Below are positions 9,488 through 37,676 of a stretch of 64,000 nt of DNA, in pieces. This DNA comes from a virus. Its lineage: Duplodnaviria > Heunggongvirae > Uroviricota > Caudoviricetes. The position numbers and the translations under genes were made by a program. Location of the stretch: IMG/VR virus record IMGVR_UViG_2703718772_000011. The stretch is one strand, 5' to 3'. The notes beneath the pieces were generated by a model. It searched no databases. It saw only the letters and a program-made list of their open reading frames with translations, and was not told where the DNA came from. How positions within the stretch are numbered: the stretch's first letter is position 1; the number at the start of each line of letters is the position of its first letter.

Positions 9488-9587
9488 GTGTTTTTCCTTT
9501 TTTGATGTGTTTAAACAAGTTGTTATCTTATGTGTTTAAACAAGGCTTACAAATCAAAGATAAGGTGGGGATATACCCCACCATATG

Positions 9588-12555: not shown

Positions 12556-13299
12556 TTACCATGTTCCCCATATAGGGTTTTCCAATAATCTCGCCTCCAA
12601 CGAATTGGCTACTATTGCCGTTTGCAACGTTGGTTGGGGATAGTTTGCAAAGTCTGAATACTCATTTTCCTGCGTGACACGTTTATCTACGGCATGTTTA
12701 ACGCCACTTGCTATGAAATGACGCATGATGCCCAACAGCCTCCGACTGTCTGCACTATCGTTTGCTAAAACATGAGGGAGCTGAAGTTCGATTTCTACCA
12801 TTTCTCCATACTTACCAACAAACTGTAGTTTGTCCGCACTGTACTTTTTATCCCTCCTTTGGATAAGGAAACCAGTAAAAGCATCACCTGGCGATGCCAA
12901 ACTATCCACCCGCTTATTGGCAAGTCGAATAAGGTTCGTGAAAGCCATACAGTGATGCGCACCCATTCCCCCAAAGAACCCTTCGCTATTAATGTTAAGA
13001 TCTTCAGTTTCATGGGATGCAATAAACCCAGGCCCGACGTTGGGAAGATATCCCCCCTCAACAAAAGGATTAATCAGGATCGGCGCAATACATCCAGGTG
13101 GTAGTGATTTCAAACTTTGCATCAATGGCGTCTCGGATATTAGACCAAGCAACGCGGCGAATTGTACTCCGTCAATATTGTTGCTGCCCCACAGAATACG
13201 TGGAGCCGCACCATTGGAAGTATGCCCATTGATCAGTTTTATCGACTGCATCACTGCAAATACCTGCAAAAACTGCGAGCGGCTTAATTTAAACGACAT
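12556..13299 (-). CDS. hypothetical protein (247 aa)
   Basis: ORF immediately downstream of the SbcC-like gene. Confidence 0.5.
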   Translation of the reverse strand: MSFKLSRSQFLQVFAVMQSIKLINGHTSNGAAPRILWGSNNIDGVQFAALLGLISETPLMQSLKSLPPGCIAPILINPFVEGGYLPNVGPGFIASHETEDLNINSEGFFGGMGAHHCMAFTNLIRLANKRVDSLASPGDAFTGFLIQRRDKKYSADKLQFVGKYGEMVEIELQLPHVLANDSADSRRLLGIMRHFIASGVKHAVDKRVTQENEYSDFANYPQPTLQTAIVANSLEARLLENPIWGTW

Positions 13300-15205
13300 A
13301 GCTGCGCCCCTCTTTAACTTCCAGCGTAATAGTTTCCCGGAACCATGACTTCATCTCTTTATGGGAGATAATCAGCACAGTACCTCGCTCGCGAGCTTTG
13401 GACTCCAGAATACCCATGAGGCGTTCAAGACCGGCTGTATCGAGTGCATCGTCAATTTCGTCGCCGATAAACAAATCGATGTTTTTACTCGCCCGGTTAC
13501 TAACCAGATCCTGCAATGCCAAAGAACACGCAATGCGAACCTTCCGCTTCTCACCACCAGAGAGGGTCTGGAACGACTTACTTGAACCTTTCTTCTGCAC
13601 ACTAATGTTGAATTTGTCGCGATACTCACCTTTTTTAGTGACATCCATCGTCGACCACTCAGCAGTAATATTCCCGTCAGACAACGTATTGAGATACTCG
13701 GCAGTGCGTGTATTCAGGAAAGGCGTAACAGACGTCAAAATATGAGAACGCACCCCGGCAGGAGAGTAGACCTGACGAGCTTTTTCCAATAGCAACGTTT
13801 GTTCCTGAATAGCCTTCAACTCATCTTTTAAGGACTTGAAGGTAGACTTACTGGATACCAGGTTATCTTCGTGTCTGGCGATAAGAGCAATAAACGGATT
13901 AATCTCTTTTGATATACGATCGACCTCAGTACGAGCACGAGTCACAAGAGACTCAATAGCAACAACCTCCTTCTCACGATGACGCAAAGATGAGAGTTGT
14001 TTCGTAAGCTCTTCAATCCGGGCAATGATAGCCGTTACATCAGGTGTCGTTTTAACAAGGGCAGACTCAATGCTTAACGCTTTCTCAAGATTCGTTTTGT
14101 GTTTAGCCATTGCCTCTGCAAGTGTCTTCGCCTGACCAATTTCCTGACGTGCTTGTTCAATGAAACTCTCCTTCACCGTTGATAGATCTTCTTCGCAGTA
14201 GGCTTTGCCACAAGTAGGGCATGGTGATCCCACTTTAGTACCAACCTCTTCTGCTTTGGTCTTAAAATTACGCGCGCGGTTCATTGCATCAGCCTGACTA
14301 TTTTCTGTAGCTTTGATGCTTGCCCGAATATCAGTTATCGCACCACGAACTTTGAGCAACTTGGCGTCATGTTCTTCTTTTGAGGCTAACTTTTTGCGCT
14401 CACTTTCGATTGCCTTCTCGGTATCACGTATCTGTTCGGGAAGAGTGCGGATCTCAAGTTCAACTTCCGTTAACTCAACTTCGGCACTGGCCAGCCCAGC
14501 CAGGGCATCGTCATAACGTTTAGAACGCTCTTGCTCCCATGATTCAGAGGAGGCTTTCGCTGACTCAATTTCTGACTGTGTTGCCTCAATGGTCGAGATT
14601 GTCGACTCCAATTTGGTTTTAACCACATCCATACGTGCGGCAGCTGCATTAGCTCGCTCACGAGCAATAGCGTAGGCGCGTGTCAGTCTGTCAACGCCAG
14701 CGGCTTCTTCTACGATGGTTTTGAGGTTTTTGTCGGACATTCCAGGTAAATCTGGCATAGCTTCTTGGCTCGCATAGATGGAAGCCATGAAAACCTCTTT
14801 AGATGCACCGATCAGACGCTCGACGAACTCCTGCGTCAGCGCATCTTTGCCTTTCGTCATATCGCCATCTTCACCACGAACGATAAGACGATTTTTGAAC
14901 TCTTTGTGTTTACGGTGACGAATGATTGCGTATCTCTTGCCTTCATCCTCGATGGTTACTGCAACACGACAGTTCTTTTCATGGTCGGTAGACAACACAT
15001 CGTCACCCTTCACACCATGAGCTGTTTCGCCATAAAGACACCACATCAGGCTATTCATTAGAGTTGACTTTCCAGAGCCATTACTTGATGCGGAACTATC
15101 ATCACTATTAACACCCTGAATAAGCACTAAACCACGCTGATCTAACTCGACCTCCGCGCTGGCGATAGCCATAAAATTCTCAACCTGGAGCTTTAAAAAC
15201 TTCAT
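13289..15205 (-). CDS. SbcC/Rad50-like recombination ATPase
   Basis: Walker A (SNGSGKST), long coiled-coil middle, ABC signature LSGGEKRK, Walker B LFIGDEID. Confidence 0.85.
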   Translation of the reverse strand: MKFLKLQVENFMAIASAEVELDQRGLVLIQGVNSDDSSASSNGSGKSTLMNSLMWCLYGETAHGVKGDDVLSTDHEKNCRVAVTIEDEGKRYAIIRHRKHKEFKNRLIVRGEDGDMTKGKDALTQEFVERLIGASKEVFMASIYASQEAMPDLPGMSDKNLKTIVEEAAGVDRLTRAYAIARERANAAAARMDVVKTKLESTISTIEATQSEIESAKASSESWEQERSKRYDDALAGLASAEVELTEVELEIRTLPEQIRDTEKAIESERKKLASKEEHDAKLLKVRGAITDIRASIKATENSQADAMNRARNFKTKAEEVGTKVGSPCPTCGKAYCEEDLSTVKESFIEQARQEIGQAKTLAEAMAKHKTNLEKALSIESALVKTTPDVTAIIARIEELTKQLSSLRHREKEVVAIESLVTRARTEVDRISKEINPFIALIARHEDNLVSSKSTFKSLKDELKAIQEQTLLLEKARQVYSPAGVRSHILTSVTPFLNTRTAEYLNTLSDGNITAEWSTMDVTKKGEYRDKFNISVQKKGSSKSFQTLSGGEKRKVRIACSLALQDLVSNRASKNIDLFIGDEIDDALDTAGLERLMGILESKARERGTVLIISHKEMKSWFRETITLEVKEGRSYVV

Positions 15206-15434
15206 ATAACACCTCTGATACCGTGTGTTAGCTTTTGGCCTTCTTTCAATCTGAACTCCGTATGCGCCGGGAAGGATCTGCGCCTCAATACGCCTTTTCT
15301 TGTTAACCTTCCAAGATAAAACGCTACGGGATTTCCTTGTGGCGGGTAGGGCTTGTGAAACATCACCGTCTGGCCTCGTTCAAGTCTTTTCATCGTGATG
15401 GCAAAGTCTCGAAAGCTCCCATAACGACTTTGCT

Positions 15435-16520
15435 TCACACAGCCTCCGAACTCTCCGCTTCGGTGAGGATTTCCTGACACAAAATATCCAATTTGCTCAG
15501 ATCAAATCCGCCGTCAGTATCGTGGACAATCTTGCAATAAGCAGATACCGACGCTCCCAGGCTATCGATTTTGCTGGTTTCAGTTGTGCTGGCTGTACCT
15601 TCCATCATTGATGACTTACGGATGAAGTTGCACACGACACCTTTTGCACCCATTGTTTTGAGGATGTTCTGGTACTTAATGCCTTCTTCATCGTTCTCAA
15701 TTACGGCGCGGAAACGCACGTAGTTGCCGCGAATTTGGTCATCAGCAACATCATCTTCCAGGTTAATGAATTTAGGCGCACTGGTTTCGTAGTGACTGAA
15801 ACTGCCGTCCGGGTTTACGATCATGTAGCCCGCCAGAGATCCAACATCTCCCCAATTTTGATGAGTCAGTGCACCGACACTGATAACTCCAGGAATGACC
15901 TCTTTGTGGTTGTGGTAATGCCCACTAAGCACGAGACGAAAGCCGATATCCTTTAACTCCTGCGCATCGATACCGACGTCAGGCATTGTTGGAATGGCTT
16001 TGTTAATGGATGTATGGATAACAACGTCATGATTATCACCTTCTACGCTCTTACGTAATGCTTTCAGATCGCTGATAAGCTCCGCATGATTGTTACGCCA
16101 GCTAATCAGGTGGACAGTCACATCGCCAATTTTTATTGAGTGTGGGCGCTTGCCACATACGATTACCACGCCGATAGAACTCAGCGATGCTGCTGCGTTG
16201 GCGCTATATACTGAATCGTTGGTTTCAAGATCGTGATTACCGGCCAGCATTACTACTGTCAGATCAAGCTCGTTGATAATCCACTTGTACGTTTCAGTTA
16301 CGTAATGCAAAACAGAAGGGGACACAGTTCCTCGGACGTGAAATGTATCACCGGCAACCAACATGTACTTACAACCGGCCTTCTTCATGGCGATGGCTGC
16401 TTCTTTCGTTGCTTCCAACTGTATTTCAAGTATGGAGTTAAGCCCCTCAGCGTTCGTCGTGGAGAACGCATCCCATTTATGGTAGTGGCAGTCAGAAATG
16501 ACGCCGTATGGCAAAGTCAT
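15435..16520 (-). CDS. SbcD/Mre11-like nuclease
   Basis: Calcineurin-like phosphoesterase motifs (SDCHYH, AGDTFH, GNHD). Confidence 0.85.
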   Translation of the reverse strand: MTLPYGVISDCHYHKWDAFSTTNAEGLNSILEIQLEATKEAAIAMKKAGCKYMLVAGDTFHVRGTVSPSVLHYVTETYKWIINELDLTVVMLAGNHDLETNDSVYSANAAASLSSIGVVIVCGKRPHSIKIGDVTVHLISWRNNHAELISDLKALRKSVEGDNHDVVIHTSINKAIPTMPDVGIDAQELKDIGFRLVLSGHYHNHKEVIPGVISVGALTHQNWGDVGSLAGYMIVNPDGSFSHYETSAPKFINLEDDVADDQIRGNYVRFRAVIENDEEGIKYQNILKTMGAKGVVCNFIRKSSMMEGTASTTETSKIDSLGASVSAYCKIVHDTDGGFDLSKLDILCQEILTEAESSEAV

Positions 16521-22445: not shown

Positions 22446-24785
22446 TTACTCTTCTACTGACTCGGTGGGGTTGTCTTTTGCTCTTCGGTCGTCGATTGCC
22501 TGCAAAGCCGCAATGATTTCAGCCAGTGGCTTCTCCCGATACATCTCGACGATCTGCGATTTGGTGTATTTCTTGTCACCAATTTCAACTCGCCCGCTGG
22601 CGTTCTTTGGCAGGTATCCTTCTTCCAGCATGTACTCGACGAGCGATTCGATAACGTCGAGGCCACGAGTAGGATCGAAGTAGAATTTCCAGGTGCATTT
22701 GCCATACGGTGGTGCAACTTTGTTTTTGATGCATTCTGCGCCTACGTCCTGGCCGATCTTCTCTTTACCATCCTTCATCACCGATGCACCAAGACGGATA
22801 CGTACAGAAGCGTAGAACTTCGGTGAATCTCCACCTGGCGACGTAGTAGGGTCGCCAAACATTACACCGATTTTTGTGCGAACCTGATTCAAGAAGATGA
22901 TGCAGGCGTTGTATTTGCGTGCCCACAAAGCCAGAGTAGGGAAGTTCGCACTCGTCGCACGAGCCAGTGCCGTATTGTCGTTCATGTTTAGCTGATCTTT
23001 GTCTTTGGCAGTGCCTTCAGCCATCTTTTCGAACTTCTCGGCTTTGGAGTTCGGAACCATAGACGCAAGAGAGTCAGCCACGATACAGATTGGTGCTGAT
23101 TCGGGGATAAGCTCTTCATCACGAACCAATTTAAGTATTGTGCCGATCAACTCTACAGAGTCTTCGAAGGTATCTGGCTGCTTGTATACCCACTGACCGT
23201 CATCCTCATCTGCGTTCAGGCCATTGGCTACAGCCAGGCCAACGTCAAAACTGTTTTCATGATCGAGGAATACCGCCAGACCATCTTGTTTTTGAGCGGA
23301 GATCATCGCTGCTGTTGCAAGGAATGTGTTGTGGCTGATAATCCCGTTAGACCAGAAAGAGTGTGTTTCCGGCATCGCTACGTCGAACGTTGGCGCTTCA
23401 CCTTCCTCAATAGCCACGACTTCGTCGTAGAACAAGTTAGAGCCAATTACCGCTGCCAGTTGTGCAAACAGATGCTCGTTAAAACGATTCTTTCTGCCAA
23501 TGAAGGAGACATAGATTTCTCGCAGTTTGTCTATTCCGACACGATCGCCGCGGCCAATAACGTGGTCTACCAGAGCGTAGTCTTCACGGGTGGTCTTGGT
23601 GAGCGACTCGTAGAGTGATTTCACTAAGCCGCTGATGTGCGGAACATAGCCTGAGTAAGTGCGGTCAAAACCAATGTCCCGTTTGGTTGCCACTGATAAA
23701 CGTGCCGGAGATTCGAAACCAATCGTTGACAGAAAAAGGTCGTAATTAGAGCCACTGAATGACAGCCGGTAATATGTATTTTCATAACCCGCGACGTGTT
23801 TTTCAGAGATAGTTGACGTAATCCCCAGATTCAGGAGCATGAGGCGAATTTGCTGTAGCAGCAGCCCACTCGCGCTCACAACCTCAATGCAGCGACCATC
23901 ATTGACGTGGCATTCCAGCTCAAAGTAGCCGCGAAGGAATGCAATTTGAGCCTCGCTATTGGCGCGACGCACACTCAACGGAACCTGCTTGCCAGCAGCT
24001 TTCTCATACTCCAGACCATATTCTTTAAAAAGCAGCGAACGCACCTCTTTGCTAAACAGCACATGGTCTTCCGAGCCGTTATGTTTTCTCGTAACTGGCA
24101 TCTTGTCTGATACCAGCGAAATGAGGCGGTAGTACTCATCCTTGATGAAAGGATCTGTGTTAGAAAAATTCACTGAATTTTCAGAGGCCACGTATCCGTC
24201 AGCAATTAAATAGCCCATCAGTTTTGCGATATTGGCATCCAGGTGCTGATCGCCGAATTGATGTGTGCCAACCATTGAAGGAATCGTGTCGCCTACACTG
24301 ATTTTTTCAGCATGTCGCCAGACGACATTACCTAAGTCGTCAACCACACGGATTGGGTGACGGAACGTAGCCTCGATATAACCGCCTGATGCCAGCTTAA
24401 TACGCTTGAATTTGCGACGGTTGTTCCATGTCAGGTGTGAGGTCTTCTCTATCACGCCATTTTCATTGATGAGTCCAACGTTATGCTCTACATCGCGAGT
24501 AGTGCATGTCGCTTTGTACCCTTCAATCTCAAACAACTCTTTCACTGTTACCATTCCACGCTCCGTCAGCAGCATGGTGTCTGCGGTAACACATTTCCCC
24601 GCACTTGGAGGACCGAATACTTCGACGATACGACCACATGGGAAGCCGCCATCGTAACGACCAGAAATAGCTTTGTTTAACGGTGGAAAGCCTGTATCAA
24701 TCCAATGAGTTACTTTCTGAATTTCGTCGTTGCTACCGATTTTCTTTTTCAGAGCAAGTGCCAGTGCGGATTTTCCTTTTGCCAT
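22446..24785 (-). CDS. recA: RecA-family recombinase interrupted by an intein
   Basis: Exteins (about 357 aa) align with E. coli RecA (GRIVEVFGPPSAGK / TFLATAAMISAQ..., IIFLNQVRTKIGVMFGDPTTSPGGDSPKFYASVRIRLG). A 422-aa insert splits the Walker A loop. Confidence 0.85.
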   Translation of the reverse strand: MAKGKSALALALKKKIGSNDEIQKVTHWIDTGFPPLNKAISGRYDGGFPCGRIVEVFGPPSAGKCVTADTMLLTERGMVTVKELFEIEGYKATCTTRDVEHNVGLINENGVIEKTSHLTWNNRRKFKRIKLASGGYIEATFRHPIRVVDDLGNVVWRHAEKISVGDTIPSMVGTHQFGDQHLDANIAKLMGYLIADGYVASENSVNFSNTDPFIKDEYYRLISLVSDKMPVTRKHNGSEDHVLFSKEVRSLLFKEYGLEYEKAAGKQVPLSVRRANSEAQIAFLRGYFELECHVNDGRCIEVVSASGLLLQQIRLMLLNLGITSTISEKHVAGYENTYYRLSFSGSNYDLFLSTIGFESPARLSVATKRDIGFDRTYSGYVPHISGLVKSLYESLTKTTREDYALVDHVIGRGDRVGIDKLREIYVSFIGRKNRFNEHLFAQLAAVIGSNLFYDEVVAIEEGEAPTFDVAMPETHSFWSNGIISHNTFLATAAMISAQKQDGLAVFLDHENSFDVGLAVANGLNADEDDGQWVYKQPDTFEDSVELIGTILKLVRDEELIPESAPICIVADSLASMVPNSKAEKFEKMAEGTAKDKDQLNMNDNTALARATSANFPTLALWARKYNACIIFLNQVRTKIGVMFGDPTTSPGGDSPKFYASVRIRLGASVMKDGKEKIGQDVGAECIKNKVAPPYGKCTWKFYFDPTRGLDVIESLVEYMLEEGYLPKNASGRVEIGDKKYTKSQIVEMYREKPLAEIIAALQAIDDRRAKDNPTESVEE
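23328..24593 (-). mobile_element. intein with LAGLIDADG homing-endonuclease domain inside recA P-loop
   Basis: Starts with Cys right after GPPSAGK, ends His-Asn followed by Thr (+1); internal KLMGYLIADGYV and FLRGYFELECHVNDG blocks. Confidence 0.8.
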
Positions 24786-29587: not shown

Positions 29588-32500
29588 TTACTTATTTATT
29601 GTCTCCGCGATATCAGCCAGAATGGCCTCCAGTCGCTCTCCTTCTTCCGGTCGGAAGTACAGGATATTCGGGTTAAATCCGTAGAAGACGGTTGCATCAA
29701 GCTCTGGGAAGTACTCCTTACGACCAATCAGATCTGATGGTTTACTCTTATTGTTAAATAGTGCGGTTGAACGACTACCACACGTCAAAATGTAGGTCGG
29801 ACGCACCAGATTGATCTCTTCACGTATAAAGTCGGTGAACTGGCCGATCTCGTCTTTGGTATAGTCTTTCTCTTTGTCCTTAACCTTCTTACAAACACCC
29901 GTGACATAAAGATCGCCCATGCGCAGATCTCCAACTGTCAGTAGTTTTGCCTTAAAGTCGTCGTATCCGTTCTCCATGAAGTAGCCGGTACGAGCGTCAT
30001 TGCCGTTCGCATTGTCCAGAATGATCATGATTTTGGGTTTAATACCAATAGTCGGGCGTATCAACTCCTCACCCAAGCCCATTTCAGCCGCCATACGTGT
30101 CATGAGTACGTTGATTTCGGCAGAACGCTTAGGATTCATTTCGAACGGACGTGATGCTTTAACAGCGTCAATGATGAGATTGCCCATCAGCTCAGCTTGG
30201 TCGCGCAGTCGTTCAGGATCAGTTGCTGGCAGACTGCCTGGCTCAATTGACGCAAAAGCCCCTACTTTATGAAGCGACTCGCGTACACGACTGTTACATG
30301 CACGCTTCTCGACCGCTTCATCGAATTGTGCCACTGACTCGAATTTGCCACCAACTTTCTCACGCGCACGCATAATTGCCTGACAACCATTTTCAGAACA
30401 GCCTTTCACAGCAGAGAATGGCGCATACAGTGCCTGACTGCCGTCTTCGAGTGTGCGGATCTCAATTCGGTTAGATGACACATTAACGTCTGGTGGCAAT
30501 ACGCGAATGCCATAGGTCAGCGCATCCTTCACCAGCCCCTGATGCTTATCCTCGCCCAGAATGGTGAGCGCAGCTGCGAAGAACTCAGCAGGGTAGTGCG
30601 TCTTTAGCCACATAGACTGATAACTGATTAAAGAATAAGCAACGGAGTGTGATTTATTGAACTGATAGGCTCCGTTTTTCTCAAATGCGGTCCAGATCTC
30701 CTTCGCTTTCATCTCTGATAGCCCTGGATGTGACGCTGTAACGCGTACTGCGTTTATAGGTAGTTTTGCGCCGTGCTCAAGTGCCTCTTCGACAGTTTTC
30801 AGAGTTCCGTCTTCGCATTTAAAATGTTCCGCACGGTGAATGCGCTGTGTAGTGCCATCTTCCAGCTCAACGTCTATCCAGCCAGCTTGAGCCTGAACGA
30901 TGAACTTCTCGCCCATGCTCTTCATTTTTTCCATGTTCTTCTTACCGATTGCGGAACGCACAGCGTCAGCTTCAGCCATTGTGAAGCCGGCAAGCAATCG
31001 AGTCGCGTTCATCGTCTGTTCCTGATAGAGAATCACGCCATTTGTTTCCGCGGTAAGTTCATCAAGAACGGGGTGTAATGATTCCGGCGTCATAAAGCCT
31101 TTGGCGACAGAAACATAGTCATCCAACATGCCTGATTGAATTGGCCCCGGCCGGAAGAGCGCAGTTGTAGCGACGACCGTTTTAAAGCTCATTGGCTCAA
31201 TTCCACCACCTAAATCTTTAAGCAGCTTGCGCATTGGGCCTGATTCAAGCTGGAAAACACCTTGAGTGTACCCAGCAGCAAAACCATCCAGCACCTTGCG
31301 ATCTTCAAGAGAAATGGCATCAAGATTGATATCTTCACCTGTGTTCTCTTTTATGTAGCGTTTTGCACTATCGAGCAAATCGAGAGTTGCCAGGCCAAGC
31401 ACGTCCAGCTTAATTAGGCCCATAGCCTCGCAGTAACGCTTGTCAAATGCGATACAACGCGCGTCACCACGGCGCTCAACCGGTGTACGTTCTGTCAGAG
31501 GAACACCTGCTACGATCATCCCTGCCGCATGTCTACCAAAGCCACGCATAAGGCTTTGTAACTTGCAGGCTGCATTGAATGCATCAGGATATTTTGTTGC
31601 GTATTTGTCGAGACTTGCCAGTTGTTCGCGCAGTTCTTCCAATGGAAGGCTATCATCCTCAGCGTTCTTCAGTTCTTTTGATACCGCCATATCTGCGGAC
31701 TCCACACCATAAATACGAGCGGTATCACGTAGTGCAGAGGCTGCGCCCAGGTAGGTGAAGTTCGGAATACCCGCAACGTAATCTTCGCCGTAGCGTTCAT
31801 TCAGATACTCGATCACCTCATGGCGACGTGCCTGGCTGAAGTCCAAGTCCGCATCCGGCAAGTCGAGACGCTCAGGGTTGATGAAACGCTCAAACAGAAG
31901 ACCGTGACGGATTGGGTCGACGTTGGTTATGCCTATGCACCACGCCACCAGAGAACCGGCAGAGGAACCACGACCAGGCCCAACGGGAATGCCAGTTTCA
32001 CGACTATGATTCATCAGATCGCGTACCATCAGGAAGTAACCACAAAATCCCAGGCGAGTCAGCGTGTCCATTTCGTACTTTAGCCGCTCAACATAAACCC
32101 TGTTCTCTGAAGCAGGTGGTGTGTATCCAAACTCTTTTGTGGTAAGACGTTTACGCAGCCCTGCAACAGCCAGTTTCATAAGCGTTGCAGGCTCGTCGTC
32201 TGCCATCTTTGGCAGTGCTGGCGGCAATTCATGCCAGCGCCATGTGCAGGCATCGATAATGGTATCCTGCGTTGTTGAGGCCATTGCAGCTGTTACCGGC
32301 ACATCCATGCGAACGGAGAAGGCTTTAAGCGCCTCAAGGAGATGGCGGCGACCATTGACGGCGTTATCTCGCTGGTGGGGGATACGCAGACGATGCGGCT
32401 GGTCGATTTTGATGTTGTTCGTAACCATGTGCGCAATGTCTTTAATGTCTGCATCGTCGATCGATTCGTAATAAGCGGGATAGAACGCCACTGGCTCTAT

Positions 32501-33106
32501 TTTCAATGCGCTGGCGACTTTCATCGCCCGGACGTTAATCTGGTCGTAGAATGGGGTAGGATGCGGATAAACCACACTATAGAAGTTGTCTTTTCCACCC
32601 GCTGTAATCAGTGTGCTTATGATTTTTGCAAAATCGTTGCGTTGGAACACGCTACCGATGTCGGAAGTAAGCAGGATGATGTTGCCTTTGGCATATGTAG
32701 AAACCAACTGTTCGAGCGAGAGACGCGGTACAAAGTAGAACTGTTCTCGTGTGTTGGCCACCGTCATTAGTTCGCAGATGTCGCGATATCCTTGCTCATT
32801 TTTAATTAGAGCGGTAAACGAGTAGTTACGTCCCCGCTCTAATGATTCCATACATCTCATAGATTCTTTAGCAAGTTTAGCCCGGTGCTCGTATGTGGGA
32901 TCATCAACGATATTTAGTTTCACACCACAAATAACCGCCATGTCGTCACCAGCGGCACGTTGTAGTGGAATAACACTCGCAATATTCATGCTATCTGCTG
33001 AAATTACAGCGGTGTAGCCAGCTTCTCTGGCAATCTTCACCGCGTTTTCTGCTTTTAGAGCCGACTCCCCAAGTGAGAAGTCAGTTCGAACCATCAGTGC
33101 TTTCAT
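29588..33106 (-). CDS. dnaE: DNA polymerase III alpha-type replicative polymerase (DnaE family)
   Basis: 1172 aa; GYFLMVRD..GIPVGPGRGSSAGSLVAW...LLFERFINPER and FNKSHSVAYSLISYQSMWLKTHYPAEF match DnaE catalytic-core blocks. Confidence 0.95.
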   Translation of the reverse strand: MKALMVRTDFSLGESALKAENAVKIAREAGYTAVISADSMNIASVIPLQRAAGDDMAVICGVKLNIVDDPTYEHRAKLAKESMRCMESLERGRNYSFTALIKNEQGYRDICELMTVANTREQFYFVPRLSLEQLVSTYAKGNIILLTSDIGSVFQRNDFAKIISTLITAGGKDNFYSVVYPHPTPFYDQINVRAMKVASALKIEPVAFYPAYYESIDDADIKDIAHMVTNNIKIDQPHRLRIPHQRDNAVNGRRHLLEALKAFSVRMDVPVTAAMASTTQDTIIDACTWRWHELPPALPKMADDEPATLMKLAVAGLRKRLTTKEFGYTPPASENRVYVERLKYEMDTLTRLGFCGYFLMVRDLMNHSRETGIPVGPGRGSSAGSLVAWCIGITNVDPIRHGLLFERFINPERLDLPDADLDFSQARRHEVIEYLNERYGEDYVAGIPNFTYLGAASALRDTARIYGVESADMAVSKELKNAEDDSLPLEELREQLASLDKYATKYPDAFNAACKLQSLMRGFGRHAAGMIVAGVPLTERTPVERRGDARCIAFDKRYCEAMGLIKLDVLGLATLDLLDSAKRYIKENTGEDINLDAISLEDRKVLDGFAAGYTQGVFQLESGPMRKLLKDLGGGIEPMSFKTVVATTALFRPGPIQSGMLDDYVSVAKGFMTPESLHPVLDELTAETNGVILYQEQTMNATRLLAGFTMAEADAVRSAIGKKNMEKMKSMGEKFIVQAQAGWIDVELEDGTTQRIHRAEHFKCEDGTLKTVEEALEHGAKLPINAVRVTASHPGLSEMKAKEIWTAFEKNGAYQFNKSHSVAYSLISYQSMWLKTHYPAEFFAAALTILGEDKHQGLVKDALTYGIRVLPPDVNVSSNRIEIRTLEDGSQALYAPFSAVKGCSENGCQAIMRAREKVGGKFESVAQFDEAVEKRACNSRVRESLHKVGAFASIEPGSLPATDPERLRDQAELMGNLIIDAVKASRPFEMNPKRSAEINVLMTRMAAEMGLGEELIRPTIGIKPKIMIILDNANGNDARTGYFMENGYDDFKAKLLTVGDLRMGDLYVTGVCKKVKDKEKDYTKDEIGQFTDFIREEINLVRPTYILTCGSRSTALFNNKSKPSDLIGRKEYFPELDATVFYGFNPNILYFRPEEGERLEAILADIAETINK

Positions 33107-33285
33107 GTGTTTTTACCTTTATGGTTTTTTTTGATTTTGTCATTGGGGAAGCCTACGAACTTCCCATACATCGAAATCGCAACTTCTTTTGCTGATTGGT
33201 GACAATCGGGCTTGTCTGGACACCCCAGACAAGCCTTGCCAGTTTCAGAAGCAGCGATAAGAGAGCCGAAACATCCTTTACGCAC
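33103..33285 (-). CDS. small Cys-rich protein (60 aa)
   Basis: Tightly packed between AAA+ gene and dnaE; four Cys. Confidence 0.35.
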   Translation of the reverse strand: MRKGCFGSLIAASETGKACLGCPDKPDCHQSAKEVAISMYGKFVGFPNDKIKKNHKGKNT

Positions 33286-33287
33286 GA

Positions 33288-34523
33288 TTAACCAAATATT
33301 TTTTGAACAACTTCACGAGCCGCTTGCGCAGAAGCTGAAGGGAGTTTGTTAATGAAAGAACGCTCAATACCTGTCACAAAGTCGCCTCGCATCATTCCAA
33401 TCTTGGCCGACAACAAAAGTTCACGAGGGCCAATTGGCTGACTGATAAGGTGTTCTTCGTATCCATCGCGAACGATACCGGCAAACTTAACCATCTTTTC
33501 TGCGTATTCATCCACGATACCGGCATTTATCAACATGTTGATCTCTGCCTCTTTGCTCATGTATTTCACATTCGAAACGATGCCAAAACGCGAAAAGTTC
33601 GCGGCGTTCTGGATGTTTGTACCCTGGTACAAGCCGGTTTCATCACCAGATCCGTTCGTGTTGCCAGTGCCAATGAAAGCAAACCGTTCATGCGGAGTAA
33701 TGCGACGCCATTCTGGAGTCGCCTCTTTGATGACCAACGCTTCACCTTCCAGCACTGGCTGATACACGCCAAGAATCTGTGGAAACGCAAAGTCGTATTC
33801 ATCCGCGAGGTAAACCCAGCCATGCTTCATTGCGAGCGCAAGCAAGCCAGGCTCGAAATACGTAGAGCCATCACGCGCCAGAATTTGCCCCGTAACATGT
33901 GCCTCTTCCATTGATGCTGTATGTTGGGCACGGATCAACGGACGATTGAGCAAAGCACATAGTTGTGTAGGCAATGACGATTTGCCTGTTCCTGCATGAC
34001 CCCACAAATAGCCAGGTATGCCAAGTTCAAGCATCATGAAAATGTCTTTGATCAGTTCGAAGTCGCCATATACGTAGCCCTTCTTCACTTCTGGAACGAA
34101 CTCTGGAAACAGCGTATTGACGTTGACGCTAACCATGAGCGGCGTCCCACGTTTTGTTCCGAGTTCTTTCACCGTTACATTTAGCAGTTCGTGAGCTGCG
34201 ACCAGATCTGTCTTGTACTCAACTGTGCCTGTGTAGCCTGGGCTACTGGTCACGCCAGATGATTTGGTCATTTCGCTTTTTTGCTCGGCACGTTTAGCTT
34301 GAATTGCATCAAGTGCCTTTTTCGATAGCGTTGGCTCATCTGGAAACTGTGTTGTGTACATTTTCAGTACGGTGTCAGGATCGGCATCTTTTACTGACTC
34401 AGGAATGCCCTCGCAATTACCATTGGCAACATGGGACTTAAAATAGTGAAATGATTTTCCGCACCACTTGCAAACAAGGTAATCAGAAGGATTTTTTTCA
34501 TTTTGCAGTGCAGTAGTAGTCAT
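33288..34523 (-). CDS. MoxR/CobS-like AAA+ ATPase with N-terminal zinc ribbon
   Basis: CKWCGKSF..C ribbon; Walker A GHAGTGKSS; Walker B LADEYD. Confidence 0.7.
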   Translation of the reverse strand: MTTTALQNEKNPSDYLVCKWCGKSFHYFKSHVANGNCEGIPESVKDADPDTVLKMYTTQFPDEPTLSKKALDAIQAKRAEQKSEMTKSSGVTSSPGYTGTVEYKTDLVAAHELLNVTVKELGTKRGTPLMVSVNVNTLFPEFVPEVKKGYVYGDFELIKDIFMMLELGIPGYLWGHAGTGKSSLPTQLCALLNRPLIRAQHTASMEEAHVTGQILARDGSTYFEPGLLALAMKHGWVYLADEYDFAFPQILGVYQPVLEGEALVIKEATPEWRRITPHERFAFIGTGNTNGSGDETGLYQGTNIQNAANFSRFGIVSNVKYMSKEAEINMLINAGIVDEYAEKMVKFAGIVRDGYEEHLISQPIGPRELLLSAKIGMMRGDFVTGIERSFINKLPSASAQAAREVVQKIFG

Positions 34524-34618
34524 GCGTTTTTCCTTTGTTTTCTAATGAGCGTTCAACTTCTTATATAAATATATCATTATCTATCGTAAGTGGTTACTTA
34601 TCGTTAAGGCTGTTTTGT

Positions 34619-36727
34619 TCACTTTAAAATGATACGAGATAGTTCAGTAACTACAGATGAACCAAGACTATCAACGCTCGTTACCAGGGCATGATTTGAG
34701 TAAAATCTCTCCGGTGCGTCAGTCATGATGCCAATTGCCATCAAATCAATGTCAGTCTGCGTTTCAATTTGCTTCGCAACCGAACGCAAATGAGCGTCAA
34801 AACCTCTCCCAACAGCCCACGGCGCGCCATCGCTCAGAACAAGCATGATCTTCCTGTCCTCCAAGCGACCGGAAAATAACGATGCAAGGCTGGCTATGCT
34901 TTCACCATCCACGTTATTAAGAAGTGGGAATGTGTAGCCTACGCACCCCATACGTGAGCGAACTTCGCGAGAATTTACCTTTTCATTCCAATTTTTGATG
35001 ATAGGTAGCATTAAAGATTCAAAGCGAGAGAACTCATACTTGACAGCCTTAAGTTCTCCTGCCGCCATATGACTACCAAATGTAGTGAAGCCGGTGATAA
35101 TGTTGGGAACATTTATTCGATCAAGGGCATCGGCGATGGTATATGCACTTGCAAGAGCTAGTTTTATCGTTTCGCCACTCATTGAACCTGATAAATCAAT
35201 CACTTGCTGAACACAGGCGTTAACGGCTTTAGATTCTTCTTTTTTACGAAACACGCGATCATCATTCATTGCTAATCTGTAGATACTAGAACCATGAATG
35301 CGCCCCCGACGCTGGCCCGGTATAAACTGAACTCTGTTTCTGCTTGCTATTGCTCGCTCCAGGTCTTTTGCCAGCGTCGACGAAACACCTGACGAAAGAT
35401 GCTTTTCAATATATTTGTCGAAGAGCTGGTTGCCTTCAGGAACGATGCGATAGCGGCTGATTGGACATCCTCCTAAATCAATATCGGAGAATGTTTTAAT
35501 AAGCCGTTTGATATGGGCTTCTGCCTGATCAATCGAGCCGATGAAGTCGTATGAGCGATTGTATGGCCTGTATTCGCTTTTCGAGCTTTCTGTTAACTCG
35601 CTTTTAATCGTTTCGGATAGCGCATCTTCTGTCATGCCTCCGACTTCATCTTCCATGCTATCCAACTCCTCTAAAGCCTCTTCCAGACTCATTTTTGACG
35701 GAGTTGGAATGTCTGAAGAGCCGTCTTCTGTCGTTTTTCTTTTTTCGTGGTCAGCGGTTAATGATTCTGACGCCGCGTTATCAGAAGCATCAGAATCTGA
35801 TACCGCTTTATCATTTTCTGTATCATCGAATATTGTTTCTGATGATTCAGGATTATCTGAATCATCACTGTCATTATTATCATGTTTGTGCTTATTGTGT
35901 GATTCTGATTTGATAGATTTGTGATTATCTAACGCTGAGGGTGTCTCATGATCTTCGTTATCTTCATTGTTTTCTCCAGAGGCATCCGTCTGGTCAGCGT
36001 CTGAAGGATCGGAAGTTTTTCCCGGAGCTGACTCCTTACCTTTGCTTTCACTTTCAGTGTCTTTGAGGATCTTAGCTATGGTCGCAGCCACCTTTACACA
36101 ATCCTCGGTGCAAGACATGTTACGCACGGCCACATCGATACCATGTTCTTTTAATAATGAAATTGGTTTCTCAATGACAGGCCAATATTCATCCATGAAA
36201 TCTACGAACGGTGCTTGGCCATCCCAGGCTCTTACAACCGGACAGAGAAAGAAGTTTAGAAAAAGCGCGCGCTGATCTTTGCCACAATAAGCAATAGCCT
36301 CTGAAGCCTTTGGTTTAAAGACTTTTTCGATTATAAGGCGCTGAGTTGCCATCAGATTACGTCTTGTTCCGTTAAAGACCTGACCCATTTTTCGCTCGAT
36401 GAACACGTCTTCTAAGGCATTCCATAGCGACCAGGAAGGAACGCGTCCTTTTTCTCTCATTTTGTTGGACACACGAATATCGGTAAACAAAATGTGAGCA
36501 ACCTCATGATCGAGAAATCCGCGCACAGCATTCATCAATGCCGGTGTTGCGTTATCCGGGATTGATGGGATGTTTACGAGAATTGGCTCTCCATCATCGT
36601 TATAGCGTACATAAGCGTCGTCCCCTCGTTCTGCAACAGGGATGTTTTTACCTGAAAGGAGAGCGACTACTCGTTTTACACTGTCACGGAAGTCCTGAAC
36701 CTCTTTGATGGAACGTTTTTTAGACAT
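34619..36727 (-). CDS. von Willebrand factor A domain protein (CobT-like partner)
   Basis: C-terminal VWA with MIDAS motif DLSGSMSG; central about 150-aa acidic Ser/Asp-rich low-complexity insert. Confidence 0.7.
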   Translation of the reverse strand: MSKKRSIKEVQDFRDSVKRVVALLSGKNIPVAERGDDAYVRYNDDGEPILVNIPSIPDNATPALMNAVRGFLDHEVAHILFTDIRVSNKMREKGRVPSWSLWNALEDVFIERKMGQVFNGTRRNLMATQRLIIEKVFKPKASEAIAYCGKDQRALFLNFFLCPVVRAWDGQAPFVDFMDEYWPVIEKPISLLKEHGIDVAVRNMSCTEDCVKVAATIAKILKDTESESKGKESAPGKTSDPSDADQTDASGENNEDNEDHETPSALDNHKSIKSESHNKHKHDNNDSDDSDNPESSETIFDDTENDKAVSDSDASDNAASESLTADHEKRKTTEDGSSDIPTPSKMSLEEALEELDSMEDEVGGMTEDALSETIKSELTESSKSEYRPYNRSYDFIGSIDQAEAHIKRLIKTFSDIDLGGCPISRYRIVPEGNQLFDKYIEKHLSSGVSSTLAKDLERAIASRNRVQFIPGQRRGRIHGSSIYRLAMNDDRVFRKKEESKAVNACVQQVIDLSGSMSGETIKLALASAYTIADALDRINVPNIITGFTTFGSHMAAGELKAVKYEFSRFESLMLPIIKNWNEKVNSREVRSRMGCVGYTFPLLNNVDGESIASLASLFSGRLEDRKIMLVLSDGAPWAVGRGFDAHLRSVAKQIETQTDIDLMAIGIMTDAPERFYSNHALVTSVDSLGSSVVTELSRIILK

Positions 36728-36825
36728 GGCTAATCCTTTGTTATGAAAACAAATTATTTACTAGTGTGTTTAATGTAGCACTGCGCGAACAGGGAACTAA
36801 GCCATTCGCGCAGGGAGAAGAGGGG

Positions 36826-37038
36826 TTAACAGATTCTGACGGCTAAAGACCCGGAGCCGGTATTGAGAAGCGTGAAGCGTTTGTTGTTAAGTTCGAATAT
36901 AAATCCAGTTGTGTCATTCACACCAACCTGAATCTGCTCATTCGGTAGATCGGTGAGGATGTCAGCTACACACTCATCAACTAATTTCTGTACGTGTCCG
37001 ATCTCAAGAGCGATTAGGCTGGAAATAGTGGTGTTCAT
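36826..37038 (-). CDS. hypothetical protein (70 aa)
   Basis: Small ORF. Confidence 0.4.
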   Translation of the reverse strand: MNTTISSLIALEIGHVQKLVDECVADILTDLPNEQIQVGVNDTTGFIFELNNKRFTLLNTGSGSLAVRIC

Positions 37039-37289
37039 TCAATCAATCCATTCTAACTTATACTATGGTAAGGAATACTACTAAAATTTGTATCAATACT
37101 GAATACATTCATATCATATGCAAGTTGATTTTCTTACCTATTTTTGGCTAATTTTTCTCCGTGCAATGGCCTTTAACCGGTCTTTTAAGTGCCTATCGAA
37201 AAAAATGATAATAGCTTTACAACCCTAACCTTTGATGTAATATCGGTAAGCACTTACCAGAGAGAATTGAACGCGCAAAGGTTGTAACC

Positions 37290-37676
37290 ATGTCTGATAA
37301 CAAGATTGAATTTATAGAAAGTCGCTACGCTGCTTTTATCGCAGGGTTGATTGAATCCTCACCTATGAGCCAGGCCCAGATAGCCAAAACAATTGGGTAT
37401 AAAAACGCCAACAACCTTTCTTTAATTAAAAGCGGCAAAATTCCTTTGCCTATCGATAAGGTTCGTCCGCTGGCGCTGGCACTGGGTATTGAGCCAAGTC
37501 GTCTTATGATGATGGTGCTGGAAGAACGCCAACCCGAACTCGCAGCATTTTTATACAAAGAAGGCACTGCTCCTCTTAACGAGGACGAAAAACAGGTTCT
37601 TGCTGCATATAACGAGCGATTCGGTAAAGAGAAAGGCGCATCACAAAAGGTTGTTGAGGCCATAAAGTCTCTATGA
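37290..37676 (+). CDS. XRE-like helix-turn-helix transcriptional regulator
   Basis: HTH segment SQAQIAKTIGYKNANNLSLIKSGK; palindrome GGTAAGcacTTACC about 30 bp upstream of its start. Confidence 0.6.
   Translation: MSDNKIEFIESRYAAFIAGLIESSPMSQAQIAKTIGYKNANNLSLIKSGKIPLPIDKVRPLALALGIEPSRLMMMVLEERQPELAAFLYKEGTAPLNEDEKQVLAAYNERFGKEKGASQKVVEAIKSL

What the first reader, a model, noticed from the sequence alone, without database searches (positions are those of the whole stretch)
33288..36727. CobS/CobT-like AAA+ ATPase plus VWA protein pair with zinc ribbon and long acidic disordered insert
A MoxR-class AAA+ ATPase with an N-terminal C4 ribbon is followed by a 702-aa protein whose C-terminal VWA domain carries a MIDAS motif and whose middle is an about 150-aa Asp/Ser/Glu-rich low-complexity segment. 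Such pairs act as chaperone-like remodelling machines; their role in phages is not established, and the acidic insert is unusual.
Basis: partly seen in the sequence, partly recalled or inferred. Interest (0 to 1): 0.5.

Follow-up and report, generated by a model that had tools for sequence, protein, structure and literature searches.

The report
Phage CobS/CobT-like motor-adaptor gene pair
Two adjacent genes of an SSU5-type E. coli phage-plasmid encode an ATP-driven motor and its adaptor, related to two cobalt-chelatase subunits; they cannot make vitamin B12 here, belong to a widespread and already described viral family, and have never been tested for function.

Summary
The genes are real. 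The window is 99.3% identical to Escherichia phage Cyrano (pLF82), an SSU5-like phage-plasmid. The 411-aa protein is a CobS-type AAA+ ATPase. The 702-aa protein is CobT-like, with a conserved VWA/MIDAS domain.

Three details of the finding need correcting:
- The N-terminal metal motif is a Ros/MucR-type Cys2-His-(His/Cys) finger, not a C4 ribbon.
- The acidic segment is not unusual. It is a family-wide disordered linker, also present in canonical CobT.
Its HExxH...E motif is invariant in 128 diverse homologues but lost in canonical CobT.

This is not a cobaltochelatase. Both proteins score far below the NCBIfam equivalog cut-offs, no CobN is annotated in Cyrano, and E. coli has only the B12 salvage route.

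The pair sits at the head of the operon that runs into dnaE. Equivalent pairs lie among replication genes in T4-like cyanophages and a Vibrio podovirus.

Most likely it is an ATP-driven machine that remodels, and possibly cleaves, a protein during lytic growth. The client is unknown. The family has been described in the literature but never tested.

The parts
34619..36727 (-). cobT-like gene (702 aa): zincin-like N-domain, acidic linker, pre-VWA 'shaft' region and VWA/MIDAS domain
   Evidence: ORF. Pfam CobT E 4e-27 and CobT_C E 9e-82. phrog_1576 E 1e-300. TIGR01651 scores 68.5 bits against a cut-off of 759.
36062..36727 (-). N-terminal M48-like zincin domain (aa 1-222)
36494..36508 (-). HEVAH (H74-E75-x-x-H78), candidate zinc-binding and catalytic motif
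   Evidence: D73, H74, E75 and H78 are 100% conserved in 128 homologues. Canonical CobT has S-M-A-L-R at these positions. Coordinates checked.
36395..36412 (-). EDVFIE (E106, D107, E111), candidate third zinc ligand helix
   Evidence: All three residues are 100% conserved in 128 homologues. They lie on helix 96-117 of the model.
35573..36061 (-). Acidic Asp/Glu/Ser-rich disordered linker (aa 223-385)
   Evidence: Composition. Identity to close relatives is 28%, against 75-76% in the flanking domains, and length varies 148-252 aa. Family-wide range is 59-327 aa. No tandem DNA repeat was found.
35228..35572 (-). Pre-VWA region (aa 386-500), by position the counterpart of the canonical CobT 'shaft' that enters the CobS ring
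   Evidence: 76% identity among close relatives with almost fixed length. Conserved E457, R458, G471, G475, D489, R491, F493. The shaft is described. The equivalence is inferred from position only.
34622..35227 (-). VWA domain with MIDAS (DLSGS at 35183-35197; T548/T549; D633)
   Evidence: Pfam CobT_C. PDB CobT C-domain 21vt, E 8e-16. MIDAS conservation. Coordinates checked.
33288..34523 (-). cobS-like gene (411 aa): Zn finger, linker and AAA+ module
   Evidence: ORF. AAA_5. phrog_249. TIGR01650 scores 85.2 bits against a cut-off of 558.55. PDB CobS 9ujv, E 2e-25.
34314..34481 (-). Ros/MucR-type zinc finger (aa 15-70; C18, C21, H26, H31, C37)
33291..34100 (-). CobS-type AAA+ module (aa 142-411). 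Walker A at 33978-34001, Walker B at 33792-33806
   Evidence: Aligned to solved CobS over aa 142-411. Invariant motif residues. Coordinates checked.
33103..33285 (-). 60-aa Cys-rich ORF between cobS-like and dnaE. It starts 2 nt after the cobS stop and overlaps the dnaE start by 4 nt
   Evidence: ORF. phrog_6337 E 2e-37. Spacing. Relatives carry different small genes at this position.
29588..33106 (-). DnaE-like DNA polymerase III alpha, the next gene downstream in the same tightly packed gene string
   Evidence: Pfam PHP, DNA_pol3_alpha, finger and HHH_6 domains. Synteny is kept at 35-47% CobS identity.
36826..37038 (-). 70-aa ORF directly upstream of cobT-like on the same strand
   Evidence: ORF. 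phrog_2627 E 2e-40.
37039..37289 (.). Divergent intergenic region between this gene string and the HTH repressor gene (37290-37676, + strand). It holds GGTAAG/CTTACC repeats that may be operators
   Evidence: Sequence and inverted repeats. Repressor HTH_19 hit. Cyrano annotates the gene as 'putative repressor'.

Best explanation
The pair is the viral form of the CobS/CobT motor-adaptor module.

Shown by sequence:
- The 411-aa protein has a complete CobS-type AAA+ ATPase site.
- The 702-aa protein has a complete MIDAS in a CobT-type VWA domain and a conserved segment just before it.
- It also has an N-terminal M48-like domain that keeps the HExxH...E zinc-site residues.

Inferred by homology with the solved CobS-CobT-CobN complex and with NorQ/NorD, CbbQ/CbbO and RavA/ViaA:
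- Six ATPase subunits form a ring.
- The adaptor docks on the ring through its N-domain and threads the pre-VWA segment into the pore.
- The MIDAS face holds a client protein.
- ATP hydrolysis transmits force to that client.

The element has no annotated CobN, and E. coli has no de novo B12 pathway. The client therefore cannot be the chelatase subunit CobN.

The viral adaptors keep the zinc-protease motif that true CobT has lost. I therefore infer that the machine also cleaves its client or a partner, working as a split AAA+ protease/unfoldase.

The pair heads the gene string that runs into dnaE, next to the repressor gene. Equivalent pairs sit among replication genes in two other phage lineages. 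I infer that it acts early in lytic growth, on a replication-, nucleoid- or takeover-related protein, and not in plasmid maintenance. In this lineage the ATPase also carries a Ros/MucR-type zinc finger, which may tether the machine to DNA or to a partner.
For: - Homology and intact motifs.
- Zincin domain: HExxH...E is invariant in 128 homologues from 50%-identity clusters and also present in T4-like cyanophage and Vibrio podovirus versions. The confident model's best structural matches are M48 peptidases. Canonical CobT_N is homologous but reads S-M-A-L-R at the motif and is described as M48C-like.
- Not a chelatase: scores are 85 against 558 and 68 against 759 bits for the NCBIfam equivalogs. 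No CobN or tetrapyrrole gene is annotated in the near-identical Cyrano genome. The encoded RNR is class I, NrdA plus NrdB; by established knowledge this class does not use B12. E. coli has only the salvage enzymes.
- Context: cobT-cobS-(small genes)-dnaE-SSB-exonuclease-RecA is kept down to 35% CobS identity. cobS, the 60-aa ORF and dnaE are 2 nt apart or overlapping. In P-SSM2 and pelagiphage Mosig the pair lies between gp46 and gp45/gp44. In the Vibrio podovirus it lies 2.6 kb upstream of helicase and PolA.
- Timing (weak evidence): the excerpt I saw of the published list of Cyrano genes expressed in the lysogen includes the repressor but not these two genes.
- General motor-adaptor mechanism.
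Against: - There is no experimental datum for any viral member.
- Synteny within the DnaE-type siphovirus lineage may simply be inherited. In small phage genomes, 'near replication genes' carries little weight.
- By host genus, most of the 870 phage records with DnaE-like polymerases appear to lack a CobS-like gene. Many CobS-bearing phages use other polymerases. Any replication link is therefore not tied to one polymerase type.
- In cyanophages, whose hosts have CobN and ChlH, the chelatase-hijack idea is not excluded.
Confidence: 0.5

Rival explanations
1. It is a metallochaperone. Like NorQ/NorD, CoxD/CoxE or CobS/CobT themselves, the pair opens a phage or host metalloenzyme so that a metal can be inserted. 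Candidates are the di-iron NrdB, the PHP domain of DnaE, or SbcD/Mre11. It does not cleave anything.
For: Metal insertion is the commonest documented job of this clade. The element encodes NrdA and NrdB, a metallophosphoesterase with an SbcC-like partner, and a PHP-bearing DnaE. The conserved HExxH...E could hold the metal to be delivered.
Against: No specific client is indicated by gene order outside one lineage. The HExxH...E arrangement on an M48-like fold is the signature of a peptidase. The one relative known to act in metal insertion, canonical CobT, has lost it.
Confidence: 0.15
2. It is a virion assembly chaperone and processing protease. This was proposed for the MoxR-vWA-metallopeptidase pair of group 2.2 jumbo phages, by analogy with the MoxR-vWA pair needed for tail development in Acidianus two-tailed virus.
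For: Published proposal for the same domain architecture. The phage has very large tail proteins: tape measure, J-like tip and fibre.
Against: In three lineages the pair lies with replication or early genes, not in the structural block. In Cyrano the structural block is a separate region at 0-26.5 kb. It is next to the repressor at the head of the dnaE gene string.
Confidence: 0.12
3. It is a DnaE-specific accessory factor. It loads, matures or exchanges the phage Pol III alpha subunit, for example by displacing host Pol III from the beta clamp.
For: cobS, the 60-aa ORF and dnaE are tightly packed. The order cobT-cobS-dnaE is kept down to 35% CobS identity. The zinc finger is seen only in this DnaE-type lineage. 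No clamp or clamp loader is annotated in Cyrano.
Against: 870 phage records have DnaE-like polymerases, mostly actinophages. Their host genera barely overlap with those of the 494 CobS-bearing records. Homologous pairs serve phages with PolB and PolA replicases.
Confidence: 0.08
4. It is a genuine cobaltochelatase motor that hijacks a host CobN or ChlH-like subunit to raise cobalamin supply. This is the auxiliary-metabolic-gene reading behind the 'porphyrin/cobalamin biosynthesis' annotations.
For: Clear homology to CobS and CobT. The proposal was made for viral cobST in general.
Against: No CobN is annotated in the element. E. coli has only the B12 salvage pathway, and heterologous cobN, cobS and cobT had to be supplied to build the route. 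By established knowledge Salmonella uses the anaerobic route and I expect the same of the other enterobacterial hosts. The phage RNR is class I, which by established knowledge is not B12-dependent. Scores are far below the equivalog cut-offs. The CobT_N surface that contacts CobN is highly diverged (16% identity by hhalign).
Confidence: 0.04
5. It is an anti-defence or inter-element conflict device that captures and destroys a host immunity protein. Alternatively it is itself a defence system carried by the plasmid.
For: vWA-MoxR modules are common in conflict systems. There is a weak local match of the N-domain motif region to anti-CRISPR AcrIIA26 (E 0.009).
Against: There is no meaningful PADLOC match. 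The pair is a conserved core gene in several phage lineages and not a variable island gene. In the excerpt seen, it is not among the Cyrano genes listed as expressed in the lysogen.
Confidence: 0.06

Closest known systems
CobS/CobT of the aerobic cobaltochelatase CobSTN (PDB 9ujv, 9uka, 21vt; bioRxiv 10.64898/2026.07.21.739949)
   Same: Same AAA+ subfamily and nucleotide-site residues. Same adaptor plan: M48-like N-domain, disordered acidic linker, pre-VWA segment and VWA with MIDAS.
   Different: No CobN partner. Far below the equivalog score cut-offs. The adaptor keeps HExxH where canonical CobT has S-M-A-L-R. The ATPase has about 140 extra N-terminal residues including a zinc finger. The linker is about 160 aa against about 90 aa.
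Viral cobST cluster, described as a 'MoxR-vWA pair with N-terminal metallopeptidase' (PMC8651126; PMC7824862; PHROGs 249, 1576 and 459)
   Same: This is the family the pair belongs to. The domain architecture and HExxH are the same as in the T4-like cyanophage 'peptidase' plus CobS and in the Vibrio podovirus CobT plus CobS.
   Different: The SSU5/Nickievirus/Rhizobium-phage lineage adds the Ros/MucR-type finger to the ATPase and places the pair directly upstream of dnaE. The host lacks any CobN, so the published hijack proposal does not apply.
NorQ/NorD, CbbQ/CbbO, CoxD/CoxE, RavA/ViaA (bacterial MoxR-class motor-adaptor pairs)
   Same: One AAA+ hexamer and one VWA/MIDAS adaptor encoded side by side, acting on a separate client protein.
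   Different: Sequence similarity is only distant: CbbQ E 5e-6 and NorQ E 1.5e-3. No zincin domain or zinc finger was reported for those pairs in the papers I read.
M48 zinc metallopeptidases (Ste24/ZMPSTE24) and the related BlaR1 sensor-protease domain
   Same: HExxH on one helix with a downstream conserved Glu. They are the best structural matches to the N-domain model.
Ros/MucR prokaryotic Cys2His2 zinc-finger DNA-binding domain (PF05443, PDB 2jsp)
   Same: CxxC-x10-H-x5-H spacing followed by T..(E)Y...(F/W)P.(D/A)(Y/A)P. It is the best sequence-profile and structural match.
   Different: It is fused to an AAA+ ATPase and is not a small transcription factor. In this protein the fourth ligand is Cys37 after a small insertion. 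There is no basic tail and the net charge is about 0. DNA binding is untested.

Membership tests
Aerobic cobaltochelatase CobS (TIGR01650 equivalog) | Whole-protein score above the curated equivalog cut-off | tested here: not met
   85.2 bits against a cut-off of 558.55
Aerobic cobaltochelatase CobS | CobS-type AAA+ fold with Walker A, Walker B, sensor 1, Arg finger and sensor 2 | tested here: met
   Aligned to solved CobS over aa 142-411, E 2e-25. G175/G178/G180/K181, D241/E242, N288, R312 and R367 are invariant. Canonical motif residues are listed.
Aerobic cobaltochelatase CobT (TIGR01651 equivalog) | Whole-protein score above the curated equivalog cut-off | tested here: not met
   68.5 bits against a cut-off of 759.05
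Aerobic cobaltochelatase CobT | C-terminal VWA domain with MIDAS, preceded by a conserved segment | tested here: met
   CobT_C E 9e-82. PDB 21vt E 8e-16. D511/S513/S515/T548/D633 conserved.
Aerobic cobaltochelatase CobSTN holoenzyme | A CobN (or ChlH-type) large subunit encoded in the element or the host | tested here: not met
   None is annotated among the 126 features of the 99.3%-identical Cyrano genome, and none was found among the large window ORFs scanned. For the host I rely on the literature: E. coli has only the B12 salvage enzymes. The host genome itself was not scanned.
Aerobic cobaltochelatase CobSTN holoenzyme | ATP-dependent cobalt insertion into hydrogenobyrinic acid a,c-diamide | not testable with these tools
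   Needs an enzyme assay or complementation of cobS/cobT mutants.
MoxR-class AAA+ / VWA motor-adaptor pairs | Adjacent genes for an AAA_5/MoxR-clade ATPase and a VWA protein with an intact MIDAS | tested here: met
   Genes are 95 nt apart on one strand. AAA_5 hit, with midasin, CbbQ and NorQ as further PDB hits. MIDAS conservation.
Viral cobST-like pair (PHROG 249 + PHROG 1576) | Full-length match to both viral family profiles | tested here: met
   phrog_249 E 2.5e-106 over aa 11-410. phrog_1576 E 1e-300 over aa 5-702.
Zincin (HExxH) metallopeptidase, M48-like | HExxH on a helix plus a downstream Glu ligand, on a zincin fold | tested here: met
Zincin (HExxH) metallopeptidase, M48-like | Zinc binding and peptide-bond hydrolysis | not testable with these tools
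   Needs metal analysis and a protease assay.
Ros/MucR zinc finger (PF05443) | Score above the Pfam gathering threshold, with Cys2His2 ligands at Ros spacing | tested here: inconclusive
Ros/MucR zinc finger (PF05443) | Sequence-specific or AT-rich DNA binding | not testable with these tools
   Net charge of the domain is about 0 across the family, which is uninformative.

The most novel reading that the evidence does not exclude
Viral CobT-like proteins may be active zinc proteases driven by a CobS-type AAA+ ring. That would make the pair a split, VWA-targeted AAA+ protease that phages of at least three replication types switch on with their replication genes to cut or strip a conserved host or phage replication or nucleoid protein. 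In the SSU5/Nickievirus lineage it would be tethered through a Ros/MucR-type finger. On this reading the widespread 'cobS' auxiliary metabolic gene of marine phages has nothing to do with vitamin B12.
Probability: 0.25. Interest if true: 0.7.

Novelty: already known. Interest (0 to 1): 0.38.

Why it matters
cobS is a core gene of marine cyanomyoviruses. It is routinely counted as a cobalamin 'auxiliary metabolic gene' in virome surveys.

The same pair sits in more than 700 plasmid records from Klebsiella, Escherichia, Enterobacter, Yersinia and Salmonella. E. coli has no de novo B12 route at all, and Salmonella uses the anaerobic route; I expect the other hosts likewise lack CobN. If the pair is really a remodelling or proteolytic machine of the lytic programme, that ecological annotation is wrong.

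An E. coli phage-plasmid such as Cyrano or SSU5 would then be a convenient genetic system to find the true client. For this window on its own, the finding is an ordinary, conserved and already catalogued gene pair.

Tried and rejected
- The search for related loci with a diverse CobS alignment returned only close SSU5-like loci. Distant contexts came from the look-up of encoding contigs and the annotated phage collection.
- Xanthomonas phage JGB6 looked like a CobS-DnaE fusion, but the record is fragmented into many short CDSs. I discarded it.
- The N-terminal extensions of cyanophage and pelagiphage CobS have no Pfam match. I could not test whether they are alternative DNA-binding domains.
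- PADLOC gave only a negligible DrmE hit.
- Net-charge analysis of the zinc finger was uninformative.
- No tandem repeat underlies the acidic linker.
- The promoter and terminator scan found fewer sites than in shuffled sequence. Operon boundaries rest on spacing only.
- No paper in the library linked pMT1 or pHCM2 to cobS/cobT, or MucR fingers to CobS.
- I rejected the idea that the pair is a DnaE-specific factor as a general explanation, because DnaE phages and CobS phages overlap little.


Full report
**What is there**

Both ORFs exist exactly as stated, on the minus strand: 34619-36727 (702 aa), then, 95 nt downstream, 33288-34523 (411 aa). A 60-aa ORF starts 2 nt after the second gene and overlaps by 4 nt the start of a 1172-aa DnaE-like Pol III alpha gene (29588-33106). 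Upstream on the same strand is a 70-aa ORF. Beyond it lies a divergent intergenic region facing an HTH repressor gene and an integrase.

The window is 99.3% identical over this region to Escherichia phage Cyrano (OV696614), which is plasmid pLF82, an SSU5-like phage-plasmid. Megablast finds the region in 770 plasmid records of Klebsiella, Escherichia, Enterobacter, Yersinia, Salmonella and others.

**The ATPase**

- It hits Pfam AAA_5 and viral family phrog_249 ('porphyrin biosynthesis', E 2.5e-106).
- It aligns over aa 142-411 with solved CobS structures (E 2e-25), with midasin, CbbQ and NorQ as weaker hits.
- Walker A (GHAGTGKS), Walker B (DEYD), N288, R312 and R367 are invariant in 34 homologues. 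By the alignment I read these as the counterparts of canonical CobS sensor 1, Arg finger and sensor 2 listed in the CobSTN paper.
- Against the NCBIfam CobS equivalog it scores 85 bits; the cut-off is 558.

**The N-terminal metal motif**

- This protein has C18, C21, H26, H31 and C37. In more distant homologues C37 is a His.
- Across 38 diverse homologues C18, C21, H26, H31, Y56 and S67 are invariant. The consensus is KIxCxICGxxxHxIxxHLKxxHPxxTxxxYxxxFPDAPxLS.
- Two of the eight N-termini scanned, both from relatives, reach Pfam ROS_MUCR above its gathering score, and three more are sub-threshold. The query itself does not reach it.
- The family profile finds the Ros zinc finger 2jsp as its best PDB hit, E 1.3e-4, about a thousand-fold better than the next hit.
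- I read this as a Ros/MucR-type Cys2-His-(His/Cys) finger. Whether it binds DNA is open, because its net charge is about zero.
- I found no paper in the library that links MucR fingers and CobS.
- T4-like cyanophage, pelagiphage and Vibrio podovirus CobS-like proteins lack this finger and have other N-terminal extensions.

**The adaptor**

- It hits Pfam CobT (aa 9-292) and CobT_C (aa 492-701) and matches phrog_1576 end to end. It scores 68 bits against the CobT equivalog cut-off of 759.
- In 128 homologues drawn from 50%-identity clusters, the MIDAS residues D511, S513, S515, T548/T549 and D633 are 95-100% conserved.

**The acidic segment**

It is real: aa 223-385, with 25 D, 25 E and 29 S. 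It is not unusual.
- Every family member has one, 59-327 aa long, with median D+E of 39%.
- Among close relatives it is 28% identical and 148-252 aa long, while the flanking domains are 75-76% identical.
- It is not built from DNA repeats.
- Canonical CobT also has a disordered linker of about 90 residues.

The N-terminal 222 residues carry D73-H74-E75-x-x-H78 and E106-D107-x3-E111, all 100% conserved in the 128 homologues.
- An AlphaFold model (pLDDT 92) has one helix, a three-stranded sheet and then helices. This is the topology reported for canonical CobT_N, which its authors call M48C-like.
- The canonical CobT N-domain sequence from PDB 9uka aligns with the viral profile (hhalign E 2e-5). 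It reads G-D-S-M-A-L-R where the viral proteins read L-D-H-E-V-A-H, so true CobT has lost the zinc ligands.
- The same intact motif is present in the cyanophage P-SSM2 'peptidase' (HEVGH...EDVRIE) and in the Vibrio podovirus CobT (HECYH).
- This architecture has been noticed before. Iyer et al. 2021 describe a MoxR-vWA pair with an N-terminal metallopeptidase in T4-like jumbo phages.

**Why it is not a cobaltochelatase here**

- The solved holoenzyme needs CobN, which sits on CobT between its N- and C-domains.
- No CobN and no other tetrapyrrole gene is annotated among the 126 features of Cyrano. The only very large proteins in the window are DnaE and tail proteins.
- E. coli has only the B12 salvage enzymes. 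Heterologous cobN, cobS and cobT had to be supplied to build the pathway.
- The phage's ribonucleotide reductase is class I, NrdA plus NrdB. By established knowledge this class does not use B12.
- The Cyrano labels 'cobalamin synthetase' and 'dimethylbenzimidazole phosphoribosyltransferase' are a name collision with the unrelated enterobacterial salvage enzymes CobS and CobT.
- The hypothesis that viral CobST hijacks host CobN therefore cannot apply to this host.

**Context**

- The order cobT-cobS-(one to four small genes)-dnaE-SSB(gp32-like)-5'-3' exonuclease-RecA is kept in relatives at 35-47% CobS identity. These include a Pseudomonas Nickievirus, a Rhizobium phage, and metagenomic and chromosomally integrated elements where the block follows an HTH repressor.
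- In T4-like cyanophage P-SSM2 and pelagiphage Mosig the pair lies between gp46 and the clamp and clamp-loader genes.
- In a 48.7-kb Vibrio podovirus it lies 2.6 kb upstream of helicase and PolA.
- The link is not tied to one polymerase type. 870 phage records have DnaE-like polymerases, mostly actinophages, while 494 records have CobS-like genes, mostly cyanophages. Their host genera overlap little.
- The excerpt I saw of the published list of Cyrano genes expressed in the LF82 lysogen includes the repressor but not these two genes. This is weak evidence for a lytic-phase role.

**Mechanism proposed**

Shown:
- intact ATPase site, intact MIDAS, intact HExxH...E;
- homology of all four adaptor regions to CobT;
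- tight gene packing with dnaE.

Inferred:
- Ring formation, docking of the adaptor N-domain on the ATPase lid, insertion of the pre-VWA segment into the pore, and client capture at MIDAS with force transmission. These come from the CobSTN structures and from NorQD, CbbQO and RavA-ViaA.
- Proteolysis of the client, and action early in lytic growth on a replication-, nucleoid- or takeover-related protein. These are inferred only from motif conservation and context.

I put about 0.5 on this. Rivals are a metallochaperone role (0.15), virion assembly and processing (0.12), a DnaE-specific accessory (0.08), conflict or anti-defence (0.06) and a true chelatase (0.04).

**Novelty and verdict**

The gene pair, its family and its odd peptidase domain are all already in the databases and literature. 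No viral member has been tested experimentally.

Three observations here were not in the papers I could read:
- the Ros/MucR-type finger on the ATPase of the DnaE-type siphovirus lineage;
- the explicit contrast between intact HExxH in viral adaptors and its loss in canonical CobT;
- the recurrence of the pair among replication genes in three phage lineages.

These make the long-standing question 'what does viral cobS do?' testable in E. coli. They do not make this window's feature new. I rate interest at 0.38.

Noticed in passing
window 22446-24785 (- strand): The RecA-like gene (779 aa) is interrupted by an intein with a LAGLIDADG homing-endonuclease domain. Pfam hits are Intein_splicing, LAGLIDADG_3 and RecA.
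   Followed up: no
window 29588-30250 (- strand; C-terminal ~220 aa of DnaE): The C-terminus of the phage DnaE has a weak uracil-DNA-glycosylase-superfamily match (PF03167, E 0.011). DnaE proteins of relatives hit PF03167 outright. The canonical UDG motifs look degenerate, so this may be a non-catalytic UDG-like domain fused to the polymerase.
   Followed up: partly
window 37039-37289: The divergent intergenic region between the cobT gene string and the HTH repressor gene has about five copies of GGTAAG/CTTACC, including the palindrome GGTAAGTGCTTACC. These are candidate repressor operators.
   Followed up: partly
window 33103-33285 (- strand): A 60-aa Cys-rich ORF (C5, C19, C22, C28, H29; phrog_6337) is wedged between cobS-like and dnaE, with a 2-nt gap and a 4-nt overlap. 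Relatives have unrelated small genes at this position, in some a sigma-70 region-2-like protein.
   Followed up: partly
window 36780-36815 (between the 70-aa ORF and cobT-like): A 9-bp inverted repeat, CTGCGCGAA...TTCGCGCAG, with a 15-nt loop and no T-run, read on the minus strand. It could be an RNA processing or regulatory hairpin.
   Followed up: no
L001 (OV696614.1) CYRAN_47 and CYRAN_48; equivalent to window 33288-36727: The deposited annotation calls these genes 'dimethylbenzimidazole phosphoribosyltransferase' and 'cobalamin synthetase'. This is a name collision with the unrelated enterobacterial salvage enzymes CobT and CobS.
   Followed up: yes
window 36395-36440 region of cobT-like (aa ~96-143): The profile of the N-domain gives a weak local match (E 0.009) to anti-CRISPR AcrIIA26 (PDB 9zq6_B) over the NxxEDxFIE motif region. 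It may be chance or a shared helical motif.
   Followed up: no
L084, L094, L095 (loci of distant homologues): The same cobT-cobS-dnaE-gp32-exonuclease-recA block occurs integrated in bacterial chromosomes, for example a 1.05-Mb Photobacterium ganghwense contig. It lies directly after an HTH repressor and next to ordinary metabolic genes. Relatives of this phage-plasmid lineage therefore also exist as integrated prophages.
   Followed up: partly
P0043 and P0045 (CobS-like homologues), N-terminus: Some homologues have C-x2-D instead of C-x2-C in the finger (for example 'CQLDGQPVHVIQTYLKKSH'). The second zinc ligand is therefore not universal.
   Followed up: no
window 8345-11903, 6123-7253, 13289-16520 (- strand): The window also carries a class I ribonucleotide reductase (NrdA with ATP-cone, plus NrdB), a thymidylate synthase and an SbcC/SbcD-like pair. 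This is a large self-contained nucleotide and DNA metabolism set for a plasmid-borne prophage.
   Followed up: partly
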